From contig JAQIBV010000030.1 in NCBI GenBank assembly GCA_027858855.1, positions 44,644 to 108,643 of the forward strand: DNA of 64,000 nucleotides, given 5' to 3'. The position numbers were made by a program, and so were the translations under genes. Shown one piece after another: positions 20,140 to 31,509 of the stretch. How positions within the stretch are numbered: the first letter of the stretch is position 1; every line of letters starts with the position of its first letter. The notes beneath the pieces are model-generated. The model saw only the letters and a list, made by a program, of their open reading frames with translations. It was not told where the DNA came from and did not search any database. This DNA is from Spirochaetota bacterium (GTDB taxonomy: Bacteria > Spirochaetota > UBA4802 > JAFGJZ01).

Positions 20140-22110
20140 TCAATCAGGTGAGCCGGCGTTAAACTGCTCAGTAAGAGGGTCGTGAATTTCTGTCTTATCC
20201 AGAATGGGGATGTCTCCCTCTACGTTTTGCACAAACCAGTTCATTTTGACTATGTGCGAGCGTGAACCGCTTTCCCCATCAGGAATACGGATAATACCAT
20301 CCCGGTCAAAAACAGGCCCTTCGAATATTGAAAATTCGTCCTGAATAATCATTTTACGCATGAACTCAATAAATTTCTGGTTTTCGCGTGAAACAAGTGT
20401 CGTTGAGTAAAAGATGTCAACAAGCCCCGAGTTTATGCCCCACCAGAAGTTTACCGGGCGTGAATCGGTTTTGCCACCTTCAAAAAACAGTTTCCAGGTA
20501 TCATTGAGAATATTCGTAATTATTTTTTCGTAAAAGACTCCCCAGTGCCAAATTGGTATTGCATAGTGCTTAAACGGTTCGTACTGCCCAGTGGCTTCAT
20601 CTTTTTTTGTCGAAAACAGACCATAGGCCTTTTTCTTGCTTTTCAGTATTGGAAGATCATCCTGGCTGATCAGGTCAACACCCATTTCGGATAACTCCTG
20701 GGCTCCCTGAAAAGAGAGTGACTCGTTTTCCCAGCGGTACATCCAGCGGACATAAACCTTCGCTCGTGGATTAACCATGGCGGCCCCCATTGCAAAGGCG
20801 TTTATGCTGCTGATTACCTCTGGTATCGGATACGAGGCAACGTAACCTATTTTGTCGCTTTTGGTTAATGAACCTGCAAGGATACCCATTAAAAAACGGA
20901 CTTCATGAATTCGACCGAAGAAGGAGCGGACATTTTTAGATGAATCCTCACCCGAACAGTTGAAAAACTTGATCTTCGGGTACTCAATTGCAGCCTTAAG
21001 TGTTGCGTTTTTGAAAGTGGGTGATGTTGTGAAGATGACATCCAGTTTTTTATCAGCCAGCTTGCAGATATAGTCATAGGCGGTTTCGTCTTGCGGAACA
21101 TCATCTATGAGTACTGTTTCGACCTTTGAGCCAAGCATGCTGATAATATGCTGCCGTCCCTGCTCCTGAGAGTTGGTCCATCCGGAGGTCTCGGCTGATT
21201 TTGCGTATATGAAGCCGATTTTGAGTTTCTTGTTTGTCATGCGCTTGGCAATTTGATTGATGACATTCGAGCAGCCTTGTCTTGCCGGTTCGGTTATCTC
21301 GTTAACCTCGTTGCTGTTAAGCGTTTCAAATTCTGGAAATAGCTTTTTTATAAGAACTCGATGTTTGCTTTCGGTAATCTCGTCAGGAATGCCATACAGG
21401 TCAAGAAACTGTAAAAGGGCATCGGCTGTCGTAATATCTATCCGATCTCCGTCAAGATCATGGAAAATTCTGGAGAAGGGCATGTAGATGTTCGAAAAAA
21501 AACTCTGATATTTATTAACATTGATAAGTAGTTTTGGTTTGTATTTTGAAAGGTGCTCAAGAAGTCGGGGAAATCGTCCCGGCCGTGAGAACCAGATTGT
21601 GAATATATGGGTAATTTTGTTGAACTCAAGAAATTCGTAATAGATGGTGTTAGTCATGTCAGAGGGGTCACGCTTGGGTATGATCCTGCGGACTTCTGCG
21701 TTGATTGAATAGGCTTTGTTGAACTTCAGTACTGAAACCCGTTTGTTACCTTCACGGACGTAGAACCAGTTTAAATATTCATACACCGAGATGCTATCGC
21801 GTATGCCTTCCGCCAGATGCGATTCGAAGAGTGTCATCCATTTTCCGGCAAATTCAGTATTCAGCTCCTGAATGGGGTAAAAATTCCGTGAAAAAGCTGT
21901 AGCCCTTGAATGCGAGGATGTCCCGATTATCTTTTTCAATGGAATTTCGAAGGTGCCGATATTATTTTCAGAAACAATGTCGGTATGATTTATAAGCCCG
22001 TCAAGTGCGGGCAGGTAGCCCGAGCCCCCGTCGGAGACCCGCTTCATGAAATTTGTCTTCGCTGATTTTACTGCCGAACGGTATATTTCTACTGTTGTTT
22101 CGTTATACAT
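20140..22110 (-). CDS. ParB/Srx-like N-terminal domain fused to a BMP (nucleoside-binding) domain; no signal peptide
   Basis: ISVYEYLNWFYVREGNKRVSV; KIGFIY...GW...G, IFTTSP, KIGYVA..PIPEV...NAFAMGA. Start at 22110 with aggag RBS. Confidence 0.82.
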   Translation of the reverse strand: MYNETTVEIYRSAVKSAKTNFMKRVSDGGSGYLPALDGLINHTDIVSENNIGTFEIPLKKIIGTSSHSRATAFSRNFYPIQELNTEFAGKWMTLFESHLAEGIRDSISVYEYLNWFYVREGNKRVSVLKFNKAYSINAEVRRIIPKRDPSDMTNTIYYEFLEFNKITHIFTIWFSRPGRFPRLLEHLSKYKPKLLINVNKYQSFFSNIYMPFSRIFHDLDGDRIDITTADALLQFLDLYGIPDEITESKHRVLIKKLFPEFETLNSNEVNEITEPARQGCSNVINQIAKRMTNKKLKIGFIYAKSAETSGWTNSQEQGRQHIISMLGSKVETVLIDDVPQDETAYDYICKLADKKLDVIFTTSPTFKNATLKAAIEYPKIKFFNCSGEDSSKNVRSFFGRIHEVRFLMGILAGSLTKSDKIGYVASYPIPEVISSINAFAMGAAMVNPRAKVYVRWMYRWENESLSFQGAQELSEMGVDLISQDDLPILKSKKKAYGLFSTKKDEATGQYEPFKHYAIPIWHWGVFYEKIITNILNDTWKLFFEGGKTDSRPVNFWWGINSGLVDIFYSTTLVSRENQKFIEFMRKMIIQDEFSIFEGPVFDRDGIIRIPDGESGSRSHIVKMNWFVQNVEGDIPILDKTEIHDPLTEQFNAGSPD

Positions 22111-22546
22111 ATTTGGTACTCCTGATAACCGAAAGTAAGAACTGTACGGTCGGTAACGGACGATATATCTGTTACCATTTGAATTGCAGGTATTGATCAG
22201 GTTGTCAACACTTTTCAAAAAGATTAGGAAGAAGTTGCGTTGGCTCAGTTTGGACCGATCAGATAACCGGTTAAACAACCGGTTGTATCGGTCAATATGC
22301 TTTTTTTTTAGCAGGTATTATGAAGTTTTTGATTATCTGCTAATATACTATTTTTTTTTATTTACAAATAACAGTAATGAAACGATTTAGACCCTGTTGC
22401 ACGTATCTCGCCGGAATGACCTCCTGATTATCCCCGTTAGAATACGTTACTGATTTCTATAAAATATTTTTTAAAGAGCTTATTGCTTTTGGTCAAATGC
22501 TTGAATTATGGAAATAAACATAAATGAAGAAGTGTAAAAGGAAATT

Positions 22547-24349
22547 ATGAAAAAGATTAAAAATGTTGCGATTATTGCTCATGTTGACCATGGGAAAACC
22601 ACCCTCATTGATGCTCTGTTGCGGCAGTCAGGCCTGTACCGAGATAACCAGACAATTGATGAACGTGTTATGGATTCAAACGATATAGAGAAGGAACGTG
22701 GTATTACGATATTTTCGAAAAATGCCTCGATTCCTTATAAAGATATAAAGATAAACATAGTCGATACTCCAGGGCACGCCGACTTCGGGGGAGAGGTTCA
22801 ACGGATTATAAAGATGGTCGATTCTGTTCTTCTGGTTGTGGATGCTTTTGAAGGCCCCATGCCTCAGACCAGATATGTTCTGAAGAAGGCGCTCTCTGAA
22901 GGGCACTGCCCGATAGTTGTTATTAACAAGATAGACCGTCCCGATGCGCAACCTGAAACTGTTGTTGATAAGGTTTTTGACCTATTTGTCGAACTGCAGG
23001 CTGCCGATAACCAGCTTGACTTCCCGGTTATATTCGCCTCTGCGAAAGATGGTGTTGCTCACAAGGCCCTGTATGATGAGGGCAATGACATGGTTCCGCT
23101 TTTTAATGCCATAGTAGAGCATGTTAAAGAGCCAGAGGGGGATGAGTCATTACCGTTTCAGTTTCTGGTATCGGCTATTGATTATGATAATTATATCGGA
23201 CGTTTGTGTACCGGTAAAATAGCTAACGGAGTTTTACGTGCGGGTGATGATGTTTGTCACATCGGTGCAGATGATGTTCAGAAGCGTTTCAGGGTAACCA
23301 AGCTTCTTGCGTATCAGGGATTGCAGCGTGTAGAGGTTGCGGAGGCCTTTGCCGGTGATGTAGTTACAATTGCTGGAATTGATGAGATATCGCTTGGCGA
23401 TACTCTTTGTGATATTGAGAATCCCATTAAGCTCGAGTCTATTTCGATTGATGAGCCGACTATAGCGATGACCTTTTCAGTAAATGATTCGCCTTTTATG
23501 GGGCGCGAGGGCGACTTTGTCAGCTCACGCCACCTGACCGAACGGTTGAACAAAGAGCTGAAGAACAATGTGAGTATGCGTGTAGAGAAGTCCCATCAGA
23601 AGGACTCATACGTGGTGAAAGGGCGTGGAGAACTGCAACTTTCCATATTGATCGAGAATATGCGGCGTGAAGGGTATGAGTTCCAGGTTTCGCGGCCACA
23701 GGTTATTATGCAGGAAGTTGATGGAAAAAAATGCGAGCCGATTGAGCATGCTGTTATCGATGTTGCCGATGAGTTTACAGGTGTTGTGATTGAGAAGATG
23801 GGCTTGAGAAAGGCCGAGTTGATGGGAATGAACCAGGGAATTGATGGTTACAGTCGTCTTGAATTCAAGGTGCCTGCTCGTGGTCTTATCGGTTTTCGAA
23901 ATGAATTTTTAACAGAAACCAAGGGCACCGGAATTTTAAATCATTCGTTTCACAGCTATGAACCATTTAAGGGCGCGCTTGCTTCCAGAAGCCGTGGTGT
24001 TCTGGTTGCAATGGAGGCCGGTATTTCGGCAGCCTATGCCATCTTCAACCTTCAAGATCGAGGGATCTTTTTTATCGATCCGGGTACGGAGGTTTATGAG
24101 GGAATGATAGTTGGAGAGCATAACCGTGATAGTGACTTAGTAGTTAATATCTGTAAAACAAAGAAGTTAACAAACATGCGAGCCTCTGGTTCTGACGAGA
24201 ATGTGCGCATTGCCCCTGCAAGGAAATTTTCGCTAGAGCAGGCGCTCGAATACATTCAGGATGATGAATTGCTTGAAATAACACCACAAAATGTGCGTCT
24301 TCGCAAAAAAATTCTTAACGAAAGTAACCGCCGTAAAGCGGCAAAGTAG
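22547..24349 (+). CDS. typA: Translational GTPase TypA/BipA
   Basis: AHVDHGKTT, ERGITI, DTPGHADFGGEV, NKID, GRGELQL and KKLTNMRA motifs. Confidence 0.98.
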   Translation: MKKIKNVAIIAHVDHGKTTLIDALLRQSGLYRDNQTIDERVMDSNDIEKERGITIFSKNASIPYKDIKINIVDTPGHADFGGEVQRIIKMVDSVLLVVDAFEGPMPQTRYVLKKALSEGHCPIVVINKIDRPDAQPETVVDKVFDLFVELQAADNQLDFPVIFASAKDGVAHKALYDEGNDMVPLFNAIVEHVKEPEGDESLPFQFLVSAIDYDNYIGRLCTGKIANGVLRAGDDVCHIGADDVQKRFRVTKLLAYQGLQRVEVAEAFAGDVVTIAGIDEISLGDTLCDIENPIKLESISIDEPTIAMTFSVNDSPFMGREGDFVSSRHLTERLNKELKNNVSMRVEKSHQKDSYVVKGRGELQLSILIENMRREGYEFQVSRPQVIMQEVDGKKCEPIEHAVIDVADEFTGVVIEKMGLRKAELMGMNQGIDGYSRLEFKVPARGLIGFRNEFLTETKGTGILNHSFHSYEPFKGALASRSRGVLVAMEAGISAAYAIFNLQDRGIFFIDPGTEVYEGMIVGEHNRDSDLVVNICKTKKLTNMRASGSDENVRIAPARKFSLEQALEYIQDDELLEITPQNVRLRKKILNESNRRKAAK

Positions 24350-24371
24350 CTATAAACATCCATATTAACCA

Positions 24372-24419
24372 TTTTCATACAAAACAGGTAGCGGTAACGC
24401 TACCTGTTTTGTATGAAAA
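24372..24419 (+). terminator. Long hairpin after typA (probable terminator)
   Basis: Perfect 22-bp stem ttttcatacaaaacaggtagcg with a GTAA loop, 22 bp after the stop codon. Confidence 0.75.
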
Positions 24420-24521
24420 GCCTGAAAACCTCATATACCGATTCTAACTTCAAACTCAAAAGATACATACATAAACGTTAATTCTATTGACTAATAAATG
24501 CGATAACAGAATAATTATCAG

Positions 24522-24564
24522 AATGGTTTTCCTTCCCCGCCTCTGGCGGGGAAGGAAAACCATT
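24522..24564. repeat. Family B palindrome in a perfect 20-bp stem
   Basis: aatggttttccttccccgcc-tct-ggcggggaaggaaaaccatt. Confidence 0.85.
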
Positions 24565-24635
24565 GATTTCTGAATACATATGCAGAAATCAATGATTTAG
24601 TTTTTCGGGGCAACCCGAAAGAATTGGGAGTTCTA

Positions 24636-25682
24636 ATGTTGAAAAATATTAAGCCATTTATATATCTGCTGGTTCTGTGTGGGATAGTTTTATCTCTTCT
24701 TTCATGTAACAGGAAGAGTGATCCCAAAACACTTAAGATTGGTCTTTCTATGGATACACTCAAAGAAGAGAGGTGGCAGAAGGACCGTGATATATTTATG
24801 GCCACAGTCAAATCAATGGGTGGTGAAATTATTGTACAGGCAGCTCAGGGTGATGATGCAACCCAGATTTCACAGTGTGAGAACCTGATTACACAGGGTG
24901 TCGATGTCCTTGTGATCATTCCTCATAACGGCGAAGCCATGGCTCTCGCGGTGAAAAAGGCGCATGAAGCCGGTATTCCGGTTCTTGCCTATGATAGGCT
25001 TATTATGAACTGTGATCTTGATATTTATATCTCATTTGATAATGTAAAAGTGGGCGAATTGCAGGCAACTGAAATAGTCAAGCTGGTGCCGGAAGGAAAC
25101 TATGTCTACATCGGGGGGGCTCCTACTGATAATAATGCGCTCTTGTTCAGGCAGGGCGCAATGAATATTCTTCAGCCGCTTATTAAAAGGGGTGATATTA
25201 ATCTTGTATTTGATCAGTTTTCGGATGATTGGTCTGCATCTGTGGCTCAGAAACACATGGAAAACGCACTTACAAAGAATGATAACAACATTGATGCTGT
25301 TATTGCAGCAAATGATGCCACTGCCGGTGGCGCTGTTCAGGCTCTTTCCGAACAGGGGCTTGTCGGTAAGGTTCCTATTTCCGGGCAGGATGCCGACATT
25401 GCTGGTTGTATGCGGATCGTAGAGGGAACACAGTCAATGACGGTGTACAAATCCATTTCTGCCATTGCAACAGAGTCTGCAAAGGTTGCCATGATAATGG
25501 CAGAAGGCCGGGTAGTTTTAACAAACAACACCGTTAATAATAATAAAATAGATGTTCCTTCGCTTCTTTTGACCCCTGTTGCTGTAACAAAAGATAATAT
25601 GAAAGAAATTGTAATTAAGGACGGTTATCATAAGCTTGAAGATGTCTATAAAAATGTACCGAAGAACCAGTGGCAGAACTGA
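24636..25682 (+). CDS. xylF: D-xylose ABC transporter substrate-binding lipoprotein
   Basis: LLSC lipobox; ERWQKDRDIF, AYDRLI, YISFDNVKVGELQA, GGAPTDNNA, SGQDAD and QSMTVYK motifs. Confidence 0.9.
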   Translation: MLKNIKPFIYLLVLCGIVLSLLSCNRKSDPKTLKIGLSMDTLKEERWQKDRDIFMATVKSMGGEIIVQAAQGDDATQISQCENLITQGVDVLVIIPHNGEAMALAVKKAHEAGIPVLAYDRLIMNCDLDIYISFDNVKVGELQATEIVKLVPEGNYVYIGGAPTDNNALLFRQGAMNILQPLIKRGDINLVFDQFSDDWSASVAQKHMENALTKNDNNIDAVIAANDATAGGAVQALSEQGLVGKVPISGQDADIAGCMRIVEGTQSMTVYKSISAIATESAKVAMIMAEGRVVLTNNTVNNNKIDVPSLLLTPVAVTKDNMKEIVIKDGYHKLEDVYKNVPKNQWQN

Positions 25683-25829
25683 TGCATAAAGATAATGGCG
25701 GAGAAGCGTGTATATTGAGAAGTTTTTCCAAAGCAGGGAAGTTTTTTGATATGATAGGGCAGAATAGACAGACCTATTCGCAAAAAGCGATAAACCTTGC
25801 CTGCAGACCGGGTGTAATACGAGGAGGAG

Positions 25830-27008
25830 ATGCCAATGAATAGTGCAGTTTCCACGGAGAACAAGCCGTTAAATAGTAAAAAAAACTCTTTCAGCTTTAA
25901 CATCCGGGACTACACTTTGATTCTCGCTCTTGTTGTCATATGGGCTTTTTTTGCAATATTGACAGATGGTGTGTTTATGACTTCACGTAACCTTTCGAAT
26001 CTGGTGCGTGCCATGGCCGCAATTTCTGCTTTGGCGCTAGGAACATTTCTGATAATTGTTTCTGGGCATATTGATCTTTCTTCCGGTTCTGTTTGCGGCT
26101 TTACCGGCGCAATAGCCGCGATTCTTAATGTCTGGTTCGAGTGGGATACTACGGTAAGTATCGGAGCAGCTCTCGGGTTGGGAATTGTGATCGGCTTATC
26201 TCAGGGATACCTGATTGCATATCGCAAGGTTCCGGCTTTCATTGTTACTCTTGGTGGTTTGATGATATATCGTGGTCTTCTTATCGGTGTTACCAAGGGT
26301 ATTACCGTTGCACCATTAAGTCCAAATTTTACAGCTATAGGACAAAGATATGTGCCCGTCTTGTGGGGGTGGGGAGGGGCCGCTGTTGTTGTTCTTGTTA
26401 TATGGATTCTGGAGATGCGTAAACGCAGGAGTCATATGAAATATGGTTTTTCCGCCAAATCAACGGATAGGACGATTGCAAAATCTCTGCTTTTTACCGC
26501 TGTAATCCTCACTTTTGTGGCAGTCATGAATGATTACAGAGGAATACCAATCCCGGTTTTTATTATTCTAACTATAGTTTTTGCTTTGATTTTTCTTGTT
26601 TCGCGCACTCAGTTTGGCCGTTATGTTTTTGCCCTTGGCGGCAATGTAGATGCGGCTCGCCTTTCGGGTATTAATGTCGAGCTTAATACAATGGTGTTGT
26701 TTGTGTTGGGGGGCTTTCTTGCCAGTGTGGGTGGAATAATTCTGACTTCACGTCTGAATGCTGCAACAACGAGTGCCGGTGATATGTATGCGTTTGACGC
26801 GATTGCCGCCTGTTTTATTGGTGGAACATCTATCAAGGGGGGAGCCGGTACGGTTCTAGGTGTTCTTGTAGGGGCTCTTGTTCTGGCCTCGCTGGATAAT
26901 GGAATGAGCCTTCTGAACACAAATGCGTTCTGGCAATATGTTGTAAAGGGCGTTATTCTTGTAGCAGCCGTCTGGTTTGATATCAGTACAAGAACAAAAA
27001 AAGTCTGA
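25830..27008 (+). CDS. xylH: Xylose/monosaccharide ABC permease
   Basis: GHIDLSSGS, VPAFIVTLGG, FGRYVFALGGNVDAARLSGIN and AIAACFIGGTS motifs. Confidence 0.88.
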   Translation: MPMNSAVSTENKPLNSKKNSFSFNIRDYTLILALVVIWAFFAILTDGVFMTSRNLSNLVRAMAAISALALGTFLIIVSGHIDLSSGSVCGFTGAIAAILNVWFEWDTTVSIGAALGLGIVIGLSQGYLIAYRKVPAFIVTLGGLMIYRGLLIGVTKGITVAPLSPNFTAIGQRYVPVLWGWGGAAVVVLVIWILEMRKRRSHMKYGFSAKSTDRTIAKSLLFTAVILTFVAVMNDYRGIPIPVFIILTIVFALIFLVSRTQFGRYVFALGGNVDAARLSGINVELNTMVLFVLGGFLASVGGIILTSRLNAATTSAGDMYAFDAIAACFIGGTSIKGGAGTVLGVLVGALVLASLDNGMSLLNTNAFWQYVVKGVILVAAVWFDISTRTKKV

Positions 27009-27100
27009 TGAAAATTCACAACTAAAACTGAAGACCAACAAATCTGAAGAGCTTCAAATCTTAATCTATATGCCCCCAACCCCCAAAGGGGGCTTTTTAT

Positions 27101-27268
27101 TCATTTTCTTAATAATGCAGTTAGTATTTTATTAATTACCGTACTGTTTTTACTCATGACTTCCTCAACTGAAAAACTAAGAGTTGTAATTCCAATATTT
27201 TCTAGAAATTTATCCAGATAATTATCATAATCTACCCGTTTTTTATGAATATCTCCATCAATTTCAAT
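27101..27268 (-). pseudogene. C-terminal fragment of a DUF559 (Vsr-like) endonuclease
   Basis: Manual translation: IEIDGDIHKKRVDYDNYLDKFLENIGITTLSFSVEEVMSKNSTVINKILTALLRK*. No N-terminal half; abuts a family A end. Confidence 0.75.
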
Positions 27269-27348
27269 AGTGAACTTCGAAAAATTACCAAAGAATTTTG
27301 AAAAAAATTTCTAAATTTCGGAAGGTATCAACTTTTAAGTGCCTATTT
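27268..27348. repeat. Family A terminal segment
   Basis: Near-identical to the reverse complement of about 4830-4910 (gaacttcg..aattaccaaagaatttt..aaaaaatttctaaattt...aagtgcctatt). Confidence 0.85.
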
Positions 27349-27418
27349 TAAAAATACTGTTTTGTGCAATAACTATTTAAAGTCCCCCTTTGGGGGATTT
27401 AGGGGGCTTAATCCAAAA

Positions 27419-28501
27419 TTAATAAAAGTTCTTCTGTTTAAAGTAAATATTCGATTTTTGTTTGCGGAAGTTCTGCGGTGATATCTGCTCTTTGCATTTA
27501 AACATTCGGGAAAAATATAGAGGGTCGTTAAAACCCAGAGTTCCGGCTATTTCGTCAATTTTCAGATTAGTTTTAAGCAGCAGCTCTTTGGCCTTTTCTA
27601 TTTTTAGTCGGATGAAATACTGTTTGGGAGAGGCACCAGTTTTGTCTTTAAACTCTTTTCGAAAAACATGGTATTTCATGCCGACCTTTTCTGCAAGAGC
27701 ATTAAAGTCTATACACTCCTTCTCTAGCGATTGGCGCATGATTTTCTTAGTATTGTAAATCGGATCATAAATAGAGAGAATATTTAGCTCTTCTGATGAC
27801 GTTGCCTGGTTTCGTAGCTCGTTTATACTGCGGCTCTTATGATCTGTCACCTCAACGAATCCCTCTTCTGTTAAAAAAAAGAATTTGTCTCCGATTATCT
27901 GAGACTCTTCCAGGTTTTCCGGAATATAGACAATTCCGTCACCATTTCTCTTTTTTTCGTAGATTATCTGTTCAAGAACTTCGAACTGAAACAGTGTAAG
28001 GTATCGAGAAACTTTGTAAAAAATTGATACTTTTGAGTTGAGTAGGATGATGCTGATTAGATCAATAATGGTACGTTCGTTCAGGTTGTAATCACAGATA
28101 GGGGCACTCAGATCAATATCGATTTCGAACCTTTCTAGCAAGAGGTGAATGTCCCGAAGAAGAGCCTTGCGTCTTATGAGCCCGTAGCGTGAGTAGTGTT
28201 TGCCACCCTTGAGAGCTATGTTGTCAAATCCACTCAGGTTCATGAAGAGCGACTTGTTCTGCCATGCAATGCCGATTTGATTGCCGATGTGGTTGCTGAT
28301 TACCCGCTCTCCTCGAAAGAAGACCTCTCCGCTGTCGCGTTTTTCCTGATCGGCCAGTACGCCTACAAAGAGTCTTGAACGTGAGTCATTATCCGATACA
28401 ACACAGCAGATTTCGTTAGAGTGCACCACAAGGCTTGACTGATTAAAGCAGAGTGCATTGTCAACATACTTTGAAAGATTTTTTATTTTCAACAAGATCA
28501 T
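27419..28501 (-). CDS. Degenerate sugar-ABC ATPase-like domain fused to an AraC helix-turn-helix domain
   Basis: N-terminal ~215 aa are collinear with the XylG/RbsA nucleotide-binding domain but lack Walker A/B. C-terminal FKDKTGASPKQY...AKELL...IAGTLGFNDPLYFSRMFK...SPQNFR. Start uncertain (28501 or 28534). Confidence 0.8.
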   Translation of the reverse strand: MILLKIKNLSKYVDNALCFNQSSLVVHSNEICCVVSDNDSRSRLFVGVLADQEKRDSGEVFFRGERVISNHIGNQIGIAWQNKSLFMNLSGFDNIALKGGKHYSRYGLIRRKALLRDIHLLLERFEIDIDLSAPICDYNLNERTIIDLISIILLNSKVSIFYKVSRYLTLFQFEVLEQIIYEKKRNGDGIVYIPENLEESQIIGDKFFFLTEEGFVEVTDHKSRSINELRNQATSSEELNILSIYDPIYNTKKIMRQSLEKECIDFNALAEKVGMKYHVFRKEFKDKTGASPKQYFIRLKIEKAKELLLKTNLKIDEIAGTLGFNDPLYFSRMFKCKEQISPQNFRKQKSNIYFKQKNFY

Positions 28502-28723
28502 TAAGAAATCCTTGAAATGGAATTTGGTTTTCAAGAACTTTTATCAGGATGCTTCTGGAAAATCTCATTCCTCATAAAACAGGGTTTTCCAAGCAAGGTC
28601 ATAGTAAGATAGTAGTTTTGAGAATTCCCAATAAATCAGTGTTCTTGTTTGTGGGCGTAATACCATATCGTTACAGAGGAATTTATTTTGTCCATACATT
28701 TGTTGTTTTGAGAGATTTTAGAA

Positions 28724-28832
28724 TAGGGAACTTCGAAAAATTACCATGTTTGAGAAGGTAACATCGTTTGAGTGCATATTAATGATAATTTTTCTCGCAA
28801 AGCTTGAAAAAGCGTAAAATATTTGCGCTTTT
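28724..28832. repeat. Family A partial copy, reverse orientation
   Basis: tagggaacttcgaaaaattacc ... gataatttttctcgcaaagcttgaaaaagcgtaaaatatttgcgcttt. Confidence 0.75.
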
Positions 28833-28849
28833 TCAGATTCGTTTCGTTA

Positions 28850-30031
28850 TCATAGCTTCTCGGATCTGTAGTAGGCGATTATCAGCAAAACAGCCAGAAA
28901 CGGCAGTAGATATAGCCCACGTGAAAGGCCCAGATGTTCACTCAGTGTGCCGGCAAGAAAGGGCAGCAGGGATGCGCCGAAGTTTGTGCTTGCAAAAAGT
29001 GTGCCGGTTGCCAGGTCGATCTCGCCGGTATGGCGACGGATGACACTGTTCTGTAAAATGGGAAAGAGTCCTGAAAGTGTCAGACCGGTCAGGGGAATAA
29101 AAATATAGTGTCCATAAAAGCTTATGGGATAAATAAATGCAGGTACGATTGTTAAAAGAGTCGCTATCGAAAGAATTGCGAAGAGCTTATCTTGGCGAAT
29201 ATGGTGAGACAGAACAGCAGATATTAACCTTCCACCTGTAAAAAGGGCAAAGAAGAAAACCATAACCGACGAGACGTGCTCTTTATCCTTGCCAAGAAAG
29301 ATTTCCAGAAAAGTAGGCGCCCAGTTTATTATGGAAAATTCCAACCCTACATAACAGATTGCAGATATTGCGTAAAAGAGCATCAATTTCGAAGCAATTA
29401 GCGGAAGTCTGAATTTTGGTTTTCCAGCTGAATTAGTTTCAACTTTTTCTGCTTTGTTATTATTGTTTGGAAAGGCCGAAAAGATAAATAGAACGACAAT
29501 TAGCATCGAAAGCGTAGAAAAGGTGAGGTAGACATAGCGCCAGGAACCAGAAAAGTCGAGTATCCGTTTTGTGGTTAACAGTGCTGTGATTGCACCTGCA
29601 CCAAAGAAGAAGTGTAACAGATGGATAGAACTTTCGCGAAAACGGTAGGCATGTGTGTGAAAGAAGGCGGATATACCGATGTGCGAACCTAAAATTGTTA
29701 TAAGAGTGGCGAATCCCAGAAAAAAACTTACAGAAAGAAAGACCGGATAGCTAGGAGAGACCGCCAGCGCAACCTGCAGAAGTGTTAGAAGCAGTGTTCC
29801 GCAAATTAAAATCAGTTTTCTGTTGAACATCTTGTAAAGATAGCCGCCGAAAAAGGCACCGGTCAGTGCAGGGATTAGAGGAACCAAAAACATTATCCCA
29901 GAGGTCTGATAGTTTATAGAGAAATCTCGGCTGATCTCTGGCAGCAGATATCCGCGGATGGCGATATTGATACCCAGAAAGAATTGTAACAGATAGGCTG
30001 TAAAGACAAGAAGCAAGTCGCGTTTTTTCAT
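28850..30031 (-). CDS. MFS transporter (FucP/TsgA-like)
   Basis: About 12 hydrophobic helices; LHFFFGAGA, YVGLEFSIINWAPTFL and FTGGR motifs. Confidence 0.88.
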   Translation of the reverse strand: MKKRDLLLVFTAYLLQFFLGINIAIRGYLLPEISRDFSINYQTSGIMFLVPLIPALTGAFFGGYLYKMFNRKLILICGTLLLTLLQVALAVSPSYPVFLSVSFFLGFATLITILGSHIGISAFFHTHAYRFRESSIHLLHFFFGAGAITALLTTKRILDFSGSWRYVYLTFSTLSMLIVVLFIFSAFPNNNNKAEKVETNSAGKPKFRLPLIASKLMLFYAISAICYVGLEFSIINWAPTFLEIFLGKDKEHVSSVMVFFFALFTGGRLISAVLSHHIRQDKLFAILSIATLLTIVPAFIYPISFYGHYIFIPLTGLTLSGLFPILQNSVIRRHTGEIDLATGTLFASTNFGASLLPFLAGTLSEHLGLSRGLYLLPFLAVLLIIAYYRSEKL

Positions 30032-30578
30032 TGATTACCTACAATAGGGCAAGTTTCTGTGCTGATCATTCAGCATAGAAACTTGATTAAAATTTTAACT
30101 ATTAGGTGATCCTAATAGGGAGTCGAAAGTGGTATCTGTTAACAGAATCGTATTGTTCTCTTGAGCAAGTAATTTATTCAGGAAATACTGTCCAGTATAA
30201 GTATACCATCAAATCCGATTTTTTAAAATAATAGTGGAGTTTTTAACAGGCACAAAAGCAGGCCCTATATGTCAGCATAGTTGAAGCTTCTAATAACAAG
30301 GAGGCTACATAAATATCAATTACATCCCATCTTCATATTAATTCTAAACCTTGGTATTCGTTGCGTATAGTAACGGAGTGATATATGATTGCAAGTGCCA
30401 ATCGACATGAGTAGTGAAAACGCTACGTCGAAAGCCAGCGGAAAGCGCTATCCATTACCGAGGGCACAGAAACCGATAATAGAAGATTCAGCAACAGACG
30501 GAAAGATAGAAATACTTTGGAACAACTCGCTGCGCATTTTCTTCTTGCCTTAAAAATAATAACGCATACAGTTTGTCA

Positions 30579-31188
30579 ATGATACATGGACACGACATTC
30601 GCTACAAAAAACTCTTTTCCAATGTGGAGCTGCTTGAGCAGCTTGTTCGGACATTTGTTGCCGAGCCGTTTGTTGCGGATCTTGATTTCTCTGAAGCTGT
30701 CAAGATAGACAAATCGTTTATCAGCGCAATTTATACCCTCGTTCCGGTACTATAAGATAGCAGAGAATGAATTTGATCAGACATATCTACTATCGCTCAA
30801 GAACGCGGTATCGGCACTGTTTTATGTGGAAAACATGGGAAAAGAAGAAATTGTTAGCAAGCTTGATGTTATTTTTAAGATAATGGAAAAAGAGAAGCCG
30901 GATTTACTGAAGTTGATTACCTTGTTTATACGCAACTATTTTCAAGATGATGAGGATTTGACCGATGTAATGAATCGGAAAAACGTAGAAGAAAAGGAGG
31001 CAAAAGAGATGCTTTCACAGACAATAGAACGATGGAAAGATGAACTCGTAACTGAGGGAATAGGTCAGGGCGAACGCCATAAAGCAATAGAGAGTGCCCG
31101 CAGCATGCTGAATGATGGCATGCCAGTGCAGCAGATTGCAAAATATACAGGATTATCCGTTGATGAAATAGAATCGTTGAAGATCTAA
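30579..31188 (+). pseudogene. Rpn/YhgA-like PD-(D/E)XK nuclease pseudogene with an internal deletion
   Basis: N-terminal HDIRYKKLFSN..LDFS..KSFIS is joined out of frame to IPSFRYYKIAENEF... and the typical tail ARSMLNDGMPVQQIAKYTGLSVDEI. The catalytic middle is absent. Confidence 0.8.
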
Positions 31189-31189
31189 A

Positions 31190-31450
31190 AGAAATGCAGA
31201 CTCAGAAATATCTTCTCGTGCACCTCTCGAACAAATTATTTCCATCCAGGTTCAGCCTTTATGTCATCAAAAAAATGGTCTGTATGGCGTATGCCTGTAG
31301 GAGGATCTTTTAATAACTCCTGATATCTTTTTTCTGATTCATTAAGCTAGGCGAGGCGGTATCTATCTCGTTGATATCCTGATCGTGTACGCTTTGAAAC
31401 AGGAGTCTTAAACTAGGCTCGTAGCACGGCTCTGTGAGGTACGTGCCTTG
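31190..31450 (-). pseudogene. Decayed type II toxin-antitoxin remnant (TIGR02574-like antitoxin plus ParE/RelE-like N-terminus)
   Basis: Frameshifted fragments LLFQSVHDQDINEIDTA / LNESEKRYQELL / FDDIKAEPGWK*, overlapping ATG 31245 MEIICSRGAREDISESA. Confidence 0.55.
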
Positions 31451-31477
31451 TGTGGGTATCTCTATTTTCCCGGATCA

Positions 31478-31509
31478 AAAGAAATGCACGGATAACCGTG
31501 CATTTCTTT
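31478..31509 (-). terminator. Intrinsic terminator after the MCP gene
   Basis: 14-bp stem aaagaaatgcacgg-ataa-ccgtgcatttcttt. Confidence 0.8.

What the first reader, a model, noticed from the sequence alone, without database searches (positions are those of the whole stretch)
24636..28534. xylF-xylH without xylG, beside a dead sugar-ABC ATPase fused to AraC: candidate transporter-coupled regulator
Seen: xylF and xylH are separated by only 147 bp, where xylG normally lies, and XylH keeps its ATPase-docking loop (GGNVDAARLSG). The next intact gene is collinear with a CUT2 sugar ATPase domain (LLKIKNLSK...DSGEVFFRGE...IGIAWQ...NLSGFDNI...GIVYI..NLEE...IGDK). Its catalytic motifs are replaced: Walker A GENGxGKST becomes SDNDSRSRL, Walker B ILDE becomes IFYK, and the H-switch SH becomes PE, while the Q-loop is kept. 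It is fused in frame to an intact AraC helix-turn-helix, and an MFS sugar-type transporter is upstream on the same strand. Known: ABC ATPases can control transcription factors (MalK-MalT). Inference: a pseudo-ATPase that docks on the permease or on a real ATPase and relays transport state directly to DNA. I do not know of this architecture being characterised. Caveat: the gene is convergent with xylH and separated from it by mobile debris.
Basis: partly seen in the sequence, partly recalled or inferred. Interest (0 to 1): 0.82.

Follow-up and report, generated by a model that had tools for sequence, protein, structure and literature searches.

The report
Dead sugar-ATPase domain on AraC regulator
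A small family of spirochaete gene regulators uses a burnt-out copy of a sugar-pump motor domain as its input part and nearly always sits beside sugar-pump genes, which hints at, but does not prove, a direct line from pump to gene control.

Summary
xylF (24624-25682) and xylH (25830-27008) are 147 bp apart with no ATPase between them. The convergent gene (27419-28501, 360 aa) has an ABC nucleotide-binding fold with no Walker A, Walker B, signature or H-loop, joined to an intact AraC helix-turn-helix.

It is not a singleton. About 13 divergent relatives (23-83% identity) turned up, and every labelled record is Spirochaetota. All lack the catalytic motifs and share new conserved ones. The dead domain is under purifying selection (pN/pS 0.11 and 0.25 in two independent pairs).

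In 8 of 9 lineages with readable flanks the gene touches CUT2 sugar-ABC genes. Six of those 8 show a real ATPase gene at the locus, so loss of xylG is peculiar to this genus. One relative carries the same dead domain on a PP2C phosphatase, so it behaves as a portable input module.

A conserved orphan CUT2 ATPase and a GguA-like ATPase elsewhere in the genome could power XylFH.

Docking on XylH got only weak in-silico support (0.45, best control 0.03), and that may be recall of solved structures.

Verdict: a real, apparently undescribed AraC variant. The transporter-coupling mechanism is plausible but unproven.

The parts
24624..25682 (+). xylF, a D-xylose-type CUT2 substrate-binding lipoprotein. 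The likely start is the ATG at 24636, and there is a lipobox-like LLSC.
   Evidence: TIGR02634 420.5 bits (cut-off 389.55) and Peripla_BP_4 E 7.7e-60. It is 76% identical to the same-genus orthologue, with dN/dS about 0.06.
25683..25829 (+). xylF-xylH spacer of 147 bp, with no ATPase gene and no visible remnant. The spacer is 41 bp (ORF ends) in the sister genome.
25830..27008 (+). xylH, a CUT2 permease (BPD_transp_2) with an intact NBD-docking loop GGNVDAARLSG.
   Evidence: Pfam E 2.5e-30; GguB 359.9 bits, below the 450 cut-off. Loop conservation is shown. It is 69% identical to the orthologue, with dN/dS about 0.10. Contigs from RNA libraries cover 25718-27150.
27080..27092 (+). GC-rich hairpin followed by a T-run: a terminator-like site after xylH. 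It is one arm of an inverted pair with 27379-27396.
   Evidence: The palindrome has 11 exact copies in the genome.
27101..27310 (-). DUF559 (Vsr-like endonuclease) gene fragment, flanked by multi-copy short repeats at about 27055-27170 and 27262-27411. This is a lineage-specific insertion between the two convergent genes.
   Evidence: DUF559 E 1.8e-10. Repeat copies lie on many contigs. In the sister genome the stops of xylH and the regulator are about 10 bp apart.
27797..28501 (-). Pseudo-NBD: residues 1-235 of the regulator. It has the ABC nucleotide-binding fold and descends from the first NBD of a CUT2 ATPase. All ATP-site motifs are replaced.
   Evidence: pN/pS is 0.110 against the orthologue. 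An RNA-library contig covers 27965-28227.
27458..27697 (-). AraC-type double helix-turn-helix: residues 269-348 of the 360-aa protein.
   Evidence: HTH_18 E 1.7e-19 and HTH_AraC E 2.3e-11. The closest solved relatives are the YesN-type, AraC and XylR DNA-binding domains.
27419..28534 (-). Whole ORF of the pseudo-NBD-AraC regulator. The mechanical TTG start is at 28534; the likely ATG start is at 28501, after an AAGGA.
28535..28849 (.). Spacer between the MFS gene and the regulator. It holds dispersed repeats, including a copy of the 25-nt repeat 27266-27290 at 28722-28746, and a hairpin at 28804-28836. The sister genome has only about 50-90 bp here.
28850..30031 (-). MFS transporter of unknown substrate, upstream of the regulator on the same strand. 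The pair is conserved in the genus.
   Evidence: MFS_1 E 5e-26; TsgA 73.5 bits, below the 221 cut-off. Synteny is shown.

Best explanation
The gene at 27419-28501(-) encodes a one-component AraC-type transcription regulator of sugar-uptake genes. Its N-terminal input domain is an old, catalytically dead copy of the first nucleotide-binding domain of a CUT2 (ribose/xylose-type) ABC ATPase.

Shown: the fold; the loss of every ATP-site motif across the family; new family-specific conserved motifs; purifying selection; near-constant adjacency to CUT2 genes; and reuse of the same dead domain on a PP2C phosphatase.

Inferred: in this genome it controls the flanking MFS gene and/or xylFH.

My committed mechanism, at about 45%, is that the pseudo-NBD works in the cytoplasm as the dimerisation and signal-receiving module. 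The residues that stay invariant lie at the former Walker B, D-loop and H-loop positions. In real NBDs these form the ATP-sandwich dimer face. I therefore propose that a ligand other than ATP, or a partner protein, controls pairing of two pseudo-NBDs, and so controls how the two AraC DNA-binding domains sit on DNA.

On this reading xylFH remains a working importer powered in trans. One candidate is the GguA-like ATPase, the closest relative in this genome of the lost XylG. The other is the conserved orphan ATPase that follows a DeoR gene. The xylG gap would then be a genus-specific operon split, not part of the regulator's mechanism.
For: - Fold and descent: NCBIfam CUT2 ATPase models match residues 14-232. 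A profile of 7 members hits solved NBDs end to end at E 4.9e-18. The AF2 model has mean pLDDT 85.7, and Foldseek finds LptB and other NBDs at TM 0.75-0.84.
- Dead site: Walker A, Walker B, signature and H-loop are replaced in all members aligned: all 7 of 7, all 9 of 9, and all 10 of 10 (with the PP2C fusion).
- New constraints: G107, L122, F161, Q172 and D205 are invariant. S36, D37 and P194 are nearly invariant.
- Selection: pN/pS for the dead domain is 0.110 (HTH 0.128) for the window against the same-genus orthologue. It is 0.249 (HTH 0.090) for L209 against L210. Synonymous sites are at or near saturation in both pairs.
- Family size: 6 clusters at 50% identity among 1.84 billion representatives at E<=1e-30. 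At least 6 of 401 sampled Spirochaetota genomes carry a full-length member. All 5 full-length loci from labelled genome records are Spirochaetota.
- Context: 8 of 9 lineages with readable flanks lie next to CUT2 SBP, permease or ATPase genes.
- Modularity: the same pseudo-NBD sits on a SpoIIE/PP2C phosphatase in L212. It scores 167 bits to the family profile, against 135.6 or less for real ATPases.
- Trans ATPases: the genome has 4 full CUT2 ATPases and 4 permease sets. One ATPase is an orphan behind a DeoR gene, and the pair is conserved in both same-genus genomes (G001=G333 and G002=G406) and, for the ATPase, in 3 of the 4 same-family genomes of other genera tested. The lost XylG's closest relative here is the GguA-like ATPase, at 47% identity.
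- Precedent: E. coli XylR joins a transporter-component fold (binding-protein-like) to AraC. It appears among the PDB hits.
Against: - No ligand is known, and no binding or dimerisation was tested. The link from invariant positions to a dimer face rests on alignment to real NBDs and on textbook knowledge, not on a modelled dimer.
- The complex prediction with an XylH dimer did reach the pass mark, weakly. That favours the rival.
- The orphan ATPase is also present in relatives that still have xylG next to xylH, so it is not a dedicated replacement. It is also the least XylG-like of the four ATPases.
- No operator was identified. A 10-mer shared with a distant relative's promoter region is not above chance.
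- Regulation of the flanking genes is inferred from adjacency only.
Confidence: 0.5

Rival explanations
1. Transporter-coupled regulator. The pseudo-NBD keeps the groove that takes a permease coupling helix, or a face that binds a real NBD. It docks on the CUT2 transporter, so the regulator is held at or released from the membrane according to transport state. It would be a one-protein version of MalK-MalT.
For: - The domain descends from the very domain that docks on CUT2 permeases.
- It is adjacent to CUT2 genes in 8 of 9 lineages.
- In this genus XylH keeps its docking loop although no ATPase gene is adjacent. This clade's copy alone keeps the Q-loop Gln.
- Complex prediction of an XylH dimer (residues 25-392) with pseudo-NBD residues 1-235 gave 'weak support': score 0.45, best of 3 controls 0.03.
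- For that mark, 58 of 80 solved complexes and 2 of 110 mismatched pairs reached it. At 0.60 or under, only 7 of those 80 did, as did both mismatches that passed.
- The three runs agree in at least 87% of contacts, and the partner's pLDDT is at least 74. My own shallow alignments were used, and the job is unlike the calibration.
Against: - NBD-permease complexes are solved many times over, so the pass may be recall of the fold pair rather than evidence for this pair.
- A full two-NBD ATPase gene is visible at 6 of the 8 CUT2-linked loci (L011, L013, L090, L209, L210, L211). It would occupy both coupling helices.
- The Q-loop Gln is lost in most members.
- The same domain serves a PP2C phosphatase whose flanking genes are not transporter genes; the nearest CUT2 operon lies about 5 kb away.
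- The former ATP pocket carries new conserved residues, which suggests a remodelled site rather than a passive docking plug.
Confidence: 0.3
2. Non-transporting sensor in this genus. After xylG was lost, XylF, an XylH dimer and two pseudo-NBD-AraC molecules form an ABC-importer-shaped receptor. It would carry extracellular xylose binding across the membrane to the DNA-binding domains without ATP or transport.
For: - The four-gene arrangement without xylG is kept in all 3 genomes of the genus.
- xylF and xylH are under purifying selection.
- The stoichiometry would mimic 2 TMD + 2 NBD.
- Binding proteins that signal without transporting are known. XylFII-LytS senses xylose and controls xylFGH; I read passages of the review PMC8050422.
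- There is the weak complex score, with the same caveats as above.
Against: - Real ATPases that could power XylFH exist in the genome.
- The regulator family predates the xylG loss and elsewhere accompanies complete transporters.
- The nearest outgroup XylH (44-47% identical) has an ATPase directly upstream.
- A DNA-binding protein tethered to the membrane would need the target DNA to be brought to the membrane.
Confidence: 0.12
3. Relic. The N-terminal domain is decaying ATPase sequence with no role of its own, and only the AraC part matters.
For: All catalytic motifs are gone. In this genome the gene is surrounded by repeat insertions.
Against: - The reading frame is intact in 14 divergent members.
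- pN/pS for the dead domain is 0.11 and 0.25.
- There are invariant family-specific residues and a confident fold.
- In the window-orthologue pair the dead domain is as conserved as the HTH (83% against 80%) and more so than XylH (69%) or the MFS (64%).
Confidence: 0.03

Closest known systems
AraC/XylS-family sugar regulators, especially E. coli XylR (binding-protein-like domain + AraC HTH; PDB 4fe7 was a hit)
   Same: The C-terminal double HTH is the same (HTH_18 and HTH_AraC above the Pfam cut-offs). An N-terminal input domain is borrowed from a transporter component. The gene sits beside sugar-uptake genes.
   Different: The borrowed component is the cytoplasmic ATPase domain, not the sugar-binding protein fold. 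It therefore has no obvious sugar pocket, and its native partners are a permease loop and a second NBD. In five literature searches of my own wording I found no paper describing an NBD-AraC architecture (also 39).
CUT2 sugar ABC ATPases (RbsA, XylG, YtfR, GguA), first NBD
   Same: The fold is the same, and the sequence is collinear over about 220 residues. Several non-catalytic stretches are kept: DSG after the Walker A helix, the LSV..NIFL stretch, and the D before the last strands.
   Different: There is one NBD instead of two. There is no Walker A Lys, no Walker B Asp-Glu, no signature and no H-loop His. Identity to real NBD1 domains is 16-21%. It is fused to a DNA-binding domain.
MalK-MalT control of the E. 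coli maltose regulon
   Same: It links an ABC importer's nucleotide-binding component to a transcription activator. The review PMC6906923 states that resting MalK sequesters MalT (passages read).
   Different: MalK is an active ATPase and binds a separate regulator. Here a dead NBD is covalently part of the regulator, and no contact with a transporter has been shown.
XylFII-LytS-YesN three-component xylose sensing in Clostridium
   Same: A xylose-type binding protein is used for signalling, with an AraC-type output that controls xylFGH (passages of PMC8050422). The HTH of this family is closest to YesN-type domains among solved structures.
   Different: No histidine kinase and no receiver domain are present in the regulator. 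The membrane partner here would be a permease, not a kinase.

Membership tests
AraC/XylS transcription regulators | C-terminal region of about 100 aa with two helix-turn-helix motifs | tested here: met
   HTH_18 70.2 bits (cut-off 33.6) and HTH_AraC 43.9 bits (cut-off 26.6). All 7 of 7 members scanned match both.
AraC/XylS transcription regulators | Sequence-specific DNA binding and promoter control | not testable with these tools
   No operator was found. A shared 10-mer upstream of xylF is not above chance.
ABC transporter nucleotide-binding domains | RecA-like plus helical-subdomain NBD fold | tested here: met
   AF2 mean pLDDT 85.7. Foldseek finds LptB, MlaF, ArtP and others at E about 1e-14 and TM up to 0.84. 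The profile hits solved NBDs at E 4.9e-18.
ABC transporter nucleotide-binding domains | Walker A P-loop with Lys-Ser/Thr (pattern recalled from textbook knowledge) | tested here: not met
   It aligns to SDNDSRSRL here and to non-P-loop sequence in all 10 of 10 pseudo-NBDs.
ABC transporter nucleotide-binding domains | Walker B Asp, catalytic Glu, ABC signature and H-loop His | tested here: not met
   IFYK replaces the Walker B residues, NERT-type sequence replaces the signature, and Pro-Glu replaces Ser-His. These are replaced in all members aligned.
ABC transporter nucleotide-binding domains | Q-loop Gln | tested here: inconclusive
   It is present in the window copy and its 83% orthologue. 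In most other members it is replaced, mostly by Arg-type sequence.
ABC transporter nucleotide-binding domains | Match to Pfam ABC_tran above the gathering score | tested here: not met
   There is no match for the window protein at E<=1. 5 of 7 members match at E<=1, best 3.8e-09.
CUT2 sugar ABC ATPases (XylG/RbsA type) | Two NBDs in one chain of about 500 aa | tested here: not met
   There is a single NBD of about 235 aa followed by an HTH.
XylFGH D-xylose ABC importer | XylF-type binding protein | tested here: met
   TIGR02634 420.5 bits, cut-off 389.55.
XylFGH D-xylose ABC importer | XylH-type permease | tested here: inconclusive
   BPD_transp_2 is met. The best equivalog is GguB at 359.9 bits, under the 450 cut-off.
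XylFGH D-xylose ABC importer | XylG ATPase encoded with xylF and xylH | tested here: not met
   None lies between or beside them in all 3 genomes of the genus. No match in the genome reaches the TIGR02633 cut-off; the best is 558.4 of 723.65 bits.
MalK-MalT-type transporter-regulator coupling | Physical binding of the regulator to a transporter subunit | tested here: inconclusive
   The complex prediction gave weak support only: 0.45, best control 0.03, and possibly recall of solved NBD-TMD complexes.

The most novel reading that the evidence does not exclude
The pseudo-NBD is a detachable 'transporter reader'. It plugs into the coupling helices of CUT2 permeases, competing with or standing in for the real ATPase. 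It passes the transporter's conformational state straight to an output domain, which is an AraC HTH in most members and a PP2C phosphatase in one. In this genus, where xylG is gone, XylF, an XylH dimer and two regulator molecules would then form an ABC-importer-shaped receptor that signals without ATP.
Probability: 0.25. Interest if true: 0.9.

Novelty: new variant of a known kind. Interest (0 to 1): 0.62.

Why it matters
AraC regulators are known with many input domains, but I found no description of one built on a dead ABC ATPase domain.

If the domain merely dimerises or binds a small ligand, it is a new sensor module that databases currently mislabel. Sources call members either 'helix-turn-helix domain-containing protein' or 'ABC-type sugar transport system ATPase subunit'.

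If it still docks on permeases, it would be the simplest known wiring between an ABC importer and gene expression. It would also be a natural handle for asking how coupling helices report transporter state.

The family is small and compact (about 355 aa). It comes with defined neighbouring transporters, so the question is directly testable.

Tried and rejected
- **Operator search.** I compared the regions upstream of xylF, the MFS gene and the relatives' SBP genes. One 10-mer is shared between the xylF upstream region and L209/L210. It occurs once in the window, with 3 matches at 1 mismatch or fewer against 7.2 expected, and it is absent from the sister genome's xylF upstream region. I rejected it as chance.
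- **Rfam.** There were no matches at gathering score in 24000-31500.
- **L151.** tblastn reported a 22% 'full-length' match. It is a response-regulator-AraC gene followed by a separate real ATPase, not a fusion. I dropped it from the family counts.
- **P0047.** This 708-aa protein was one search hit at E 3.8e-38. Its listed best match covers only the HTH part of the query, in 3 stretches, so I did not count it as a family member.
- **P0193.** It is the same protein as the L212 PP2C fusion with a later start. The fusion is therefore known from one cluster only.
- **ESM Atlas.** It returned only generic ABC clusters.
- **Orphan ATPase as a dedicated replacement for xylG.** I weakened this idea. 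Orthologues at 62-70% identity occur in relatives, and the two at 70% (G404, G412) still have an ATPase upstream of xylH.
- **Word-index searches.** Searches with the N-domain profile added few members. This method misses distant relatives.
- **RNA-library contigs.** Two runs of one study cover xylH, and one run covers part of the pseudo-NBD. Contigs from RNA libraries cannot prove transcription, strand or level. Parts without cover mean nothing.
- **Papers.** For PMC8050422 and PMC6906923 I read matched passages. For PMC5882156 I read passages only: the main text does not mention ABC, and the supplements, which list companion domains, are closed. All other papers were seen as search listings only.
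- **Recalled lead, not tested.** The MalK arginine that pairs with the EAA glutamate (passage) may align to a mostly Asn/Asp position in this family. I could not verify the residue mapping, so I do not use it.
- **Counting rule.** The window and the two other genomes of its genus (G001=G333 and G002=G406, plus the metagenome copy L089) count as one lineage. L013 is split into two frames, by frameshift or assembly error. I counted it for context but left it out of the identity statistics.

Full report
**Anatomy.** The window is G000:C20:44644-108643. On the + strand lie xylF (24624-25682) and xylH (25830-27008).
- xylF passes the XylF equivalog TIGR02634 (420.5 bits, cut-off 389.55) and Peripla_BP_4.
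- xylH matches BPD_transp_2. Its best equivalog is GguB, which is under the cut-off.
- The two genes are separated by 147 bp with no ATPase.
- A terminator-like hairpin follows xylH at 27080-27092.

Convergent on the - strand is an MFS gene (28850-30031; MFS_1, weakly TsgA-like). After a 315-bp spacer comes the gene in question (ORF 27419-28534). Its likely start is the ATG at 28501, giving the 360-aa protein P0001 and matching the start of its orthologue.

Between xylH and this gene lie a DUF559 fragment (27101-27310, E 1.8e-10) and short repeats that recur on dozens of contigs. The spacer towards the MFS gene also holds such repeats. In the sister genome the two convergent stops are about 10 bp apart, so the debris is a recent insertion.

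**The fusion protein.**
- Residues 280-359 of the ORF are an AraC double HTH (HTH_18 E 1.8e-19).
- Residues 14-232 match the first NBD of CUT2 ATPases (YtfR 4.2e-18, RbsA 2.2e-16, XylG model NF010069 4e-15).
- A profile of seven family members hits solved NBDs end to end (E 4.9e-18). It hits YesN-type, AraC and XylR DNA-binding domains with its C-terminal part.
- An AlphaFold2 model from a 15-row alignment has mean pLDDT 85.7, with a low-confidence linker at 235-244.
- Foldseek against the PDB returns only ABC NBDs at the top (LptB, MlaF, ArtP, FtsE and others; E about 1e-14; target-normalised TM up to 0.84).

Aligned with six real CUT2 first NBDs, the Walker A, Walker B, signature and H-loop positions are all replaced. 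The Q-loop Gln survives in this copy.

**Not a singleton.**
- An exhaustive HMMER search of 1.84 billion cluster representatives gave 7 proteins at E<=1e-30. Six are full-length relatives of 340-369 aa at 28-83% identity. The seventh matched only through the HTH part and was not counted.
- Scanning genome contigs gave 5 full-length loci among the 80 kept. All are labelled Spirochaetota, Spirochaetes or Spirochaetales. The other 75 match only the HTH part.
- Metagenome contigs gave 3 more full-length loci, plus one false join.
- A profile search of 401 Spirochaetota genomes found full-length matches (417-546 bits) in 6, G000 included, spread over three families. Weaker members could hide below the threshold.
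- Altogether 14 distinct full-length sequences share 23-83% identity.

All members lack the ATP-site motifs. They share new ones instead: a Ser-Asp pair where the P-loop began, a YS.FG motif, and an invariant Phe, Gln and Asp around the former Walker B, D-loop and following strand. There is also a Pro in place of the H-loop Ser.

**Selection.**
- Window against the same-genus orthologue: the dead domain has pN/pS 0.110 (83% identity) and the HTH 0.128 (80%). Synonymous sites are saturated.
- In that pair the dead domain is more conserved than XylH (69%), XylF (76%) or the MFS protein (64%).
- The independent pair L209/L210 gives 0.249 for the dead domain and 0.090 for the HTH.
- Family-wide mean pairwise identity is 33% for the dead domain and 55% for the HTH.

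The domain is constrained, though less than the HTH in deeper comparisons.

**Genomic context of relatives.** Kin are counted once, which gives nine lineages with at least one readable neighbour.

| # | Lineage | Gene order at the locus |
|---|---|---|
| 1 | This genus (window; L009 = L214; L010; metagenome copy L089) | MFS, regulator, then convergent xylH and xylF; no ATPase |
| 2 | L011 | CE2 esterase, regulator, ATPase, two permeases, SBP, all on one strand |
| 3 | L013 | ATPase end, permease, regulator (split in two frames), SBP |
| 4 | L090 | Regulator, SBP, ATPase |
| 5 | L091 | Regulator, SBP |
| 6-8 | L209, L210, L211 | Regulator, SBP, ATPase, permease on one strand |
| 9 | L012 | Regulator, then a 1758-aa GH2 beta-galactosidase; the upstream side is cut off |

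So 8 of 9 lineages touch CUT2 genes, and 6 of those 8 show a complete or partial real ATPase gene at the locus. Linkage to CUT2 systems is strong. A missing ATPase is not a family trait.

**A second output domain.** The genome of L011 also encodes a 619-aa protein (L212:8475-10334). Its N-terminal 240 residues carry the same derived motifs and score 167 bits to the family profile. That is above every real ATPase in that search (135.6 bits or less). Its C-terminus is a SpoIIE/PP2C phosphatase domain (E 1.2e-45). Its immediate neighbours are an oxidoreductase and a small ORF. A separate AraC gene and a CUT2 operon lie about 5 kb away. Only one such cluster was found. The pseudo-NBD thus behaves as a portable input module.

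**The missing xylG.** The genome (97% complete) has four full two-NBD CUT2 ATPases and six BPD_transp_2 permease genes in four sets.
- Three ATPases sit in complete operons.
- The fourth (C18:28454-29953) overlaps the end of a DeoR-type gene by 4 bp, and no permease follows it.
- In the sister genomes the same pair is followed by an unrelated gene on the other strand, so it is a true orphan.
- Orthologues of the orphan (62-70% identical) also occur in other genera of the family. Two of those genomes have an ATPase directly upstream of their closest XylH homologue (44-47% identical).

The xylG loss is therefore specific to this genus, and the orphan predates it. The outgroup XylG's best match in this genome is the GguA-like ATPase of the C18 operon (47%). 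The orphan is the most distant (30%). XylH keeps its docking loop, and both xylF and xylH are under purifying selection. XylH therefore still meets some NBD-like partner. A real ATPase supplied in trans is the simplest candidate.

**Test of docking.** I folded an XylH dimer (residues 25-392, 14-row alignment) with the pseudo-NBD (235 residues, 10-row alignment). The verdict was 'weak support'.
- Score: 0.45; best of three controls 0.03.
- The pass mark was reached by 58 of 80 solved complexes and 2 of 110 mismatched pairs.
- At 0.60 or under, only 7 of those 80 solved complexes reached it, as did both mismatches that passed.
- The runs agree in at least 87% of contacts, and the partner's pLDDT is at least 74.
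- My own alignments were used, and the job is unlike the calibration.

NBD-permease complexes are abundant among solved structures. The pass may therefore show only that the fold pair is familiar.

**Expression.** Contigs from two metatranscriptome libraries of one study match xylH (25718-27150). One 263-nt contig matches the pseudo-NBD region (27965-28227) without differences. Contigs cannot show strand, ends or level, and RNA libraries can carry DNA. This is a hint only.

**Reading.**
- Firmly shown: a conserved, Spirochaetota-restricted (as far as labelled records show) family of AraC regulators with a dead CUT2 NBD as input domain, tied to CUT2 sugar-uptake loci.
- Inferred: it regulates its neighbours.
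- My preferred mechanism (about 45%): signal-controlled pairing of two pseudo-NBDs in the cytoplasm through the remodelled ATP-sandwich face. On this reading xylFH is powered in trans.
Within it, the ATP-free XylF-XylH-regulator receptor is at about 12%.
- A neutral relic is disfavoured.

**Literature.** Five full-text searches returned no paper describing an ABC-NBD-AraC regulator. They cover only the held library and my choice of words. A survey that counts 106 companion domains for AraC/XylS does not mention ABC in its main text. Its supplements could not be read.

Noticed in passing
G000:C18:27669-29953 (locus L004 701-2985); relatives L177, L174, L228: A DeoR-type regulator gene overlaps by 4 bp a full, motif-intact two-NBD CUT2 ATPase that has no permease or binding-protein gene of its own. 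The pair lies divergent from a complete ChvE/GguAB-like operon. It is conserved at about 70% identity in at least three genera of the family. The orphan ATPase's partner is unknown.
   Followed up: partly
L212:8475-10334 (-), genome G266: A 619-aa protein carries the same dead NBD at its N-terminus and a SpoIIE/PP2C phosphatase at its C-terminus. It is preceded by a 110-aa ORF with a 4-bp overlap and no Pfam match, and followed by a GFO/IDH/MocA oxidoreductase.
   Followed up: partly
L209:9300-9500, L210:9380-9550, L211:9100-9380 (minus strands): The spacer between the regulator and the SBP gene holds a block conserved across two genera (…ATCCAT.ATTTTA..CACA… followed by ATATATGG.ATTC). This is a candidate operator or promoter for this regulator family.
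   Followed up: no
window 27055-27411 and 28717-28831; many contigs of G000: Short interspersed repeats of about 60-115 nt occur in dozens of copies, many near contig ends. A CCCCCAAAGGGGG palindrome has 11 exact copies. They bracket the regulator gene in this genome only.
   Followed up: partly
window 20140-22278 (-): A 712-aa protein has a Bmp/PnrA-type binding-protein domain only in its C-terminal half (residues 352-646). The N-terminal 350 residues are unannotated. It is 81% identical in the sister genome.
   Followed up: no
window 30573-30755 and 30826-31188 (+): Two short ORFs lie upstream of the MFS gene. The second has a weak resolvase-type HTH match (E 9.6e-05, just under the cut-off). 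They may be pieces of a broken mobile-element gene.
   Followed up: no
G000:C63:17562-18857 (L234): Xylose isomerase (TIGR02630, 725.5 bits, above the cut-off) lies directly after two CUT1-type (BPD_transp_1) permease genes. The organism therefore probably also takes up xylosides by a separate ABC system.
   Followed up: partly
L011:3276-8399: A type I restriction R subunit and a TOTE-type primase-helicase conflict-system gene lie just upstream of the relative's sugar locus.
   Followed up: no
L013:1717-2779: The family member on this contig is split into two overlapping frames. This is either a frameshift or an assembly error in a low-coverage MAG contig.
   Followed up: no
window 27102: One RNA-library contig lacks 14 nt here, inside the repeat/DUF559 debris. 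This suggests strain variation in the insertion.
   Followed up: no
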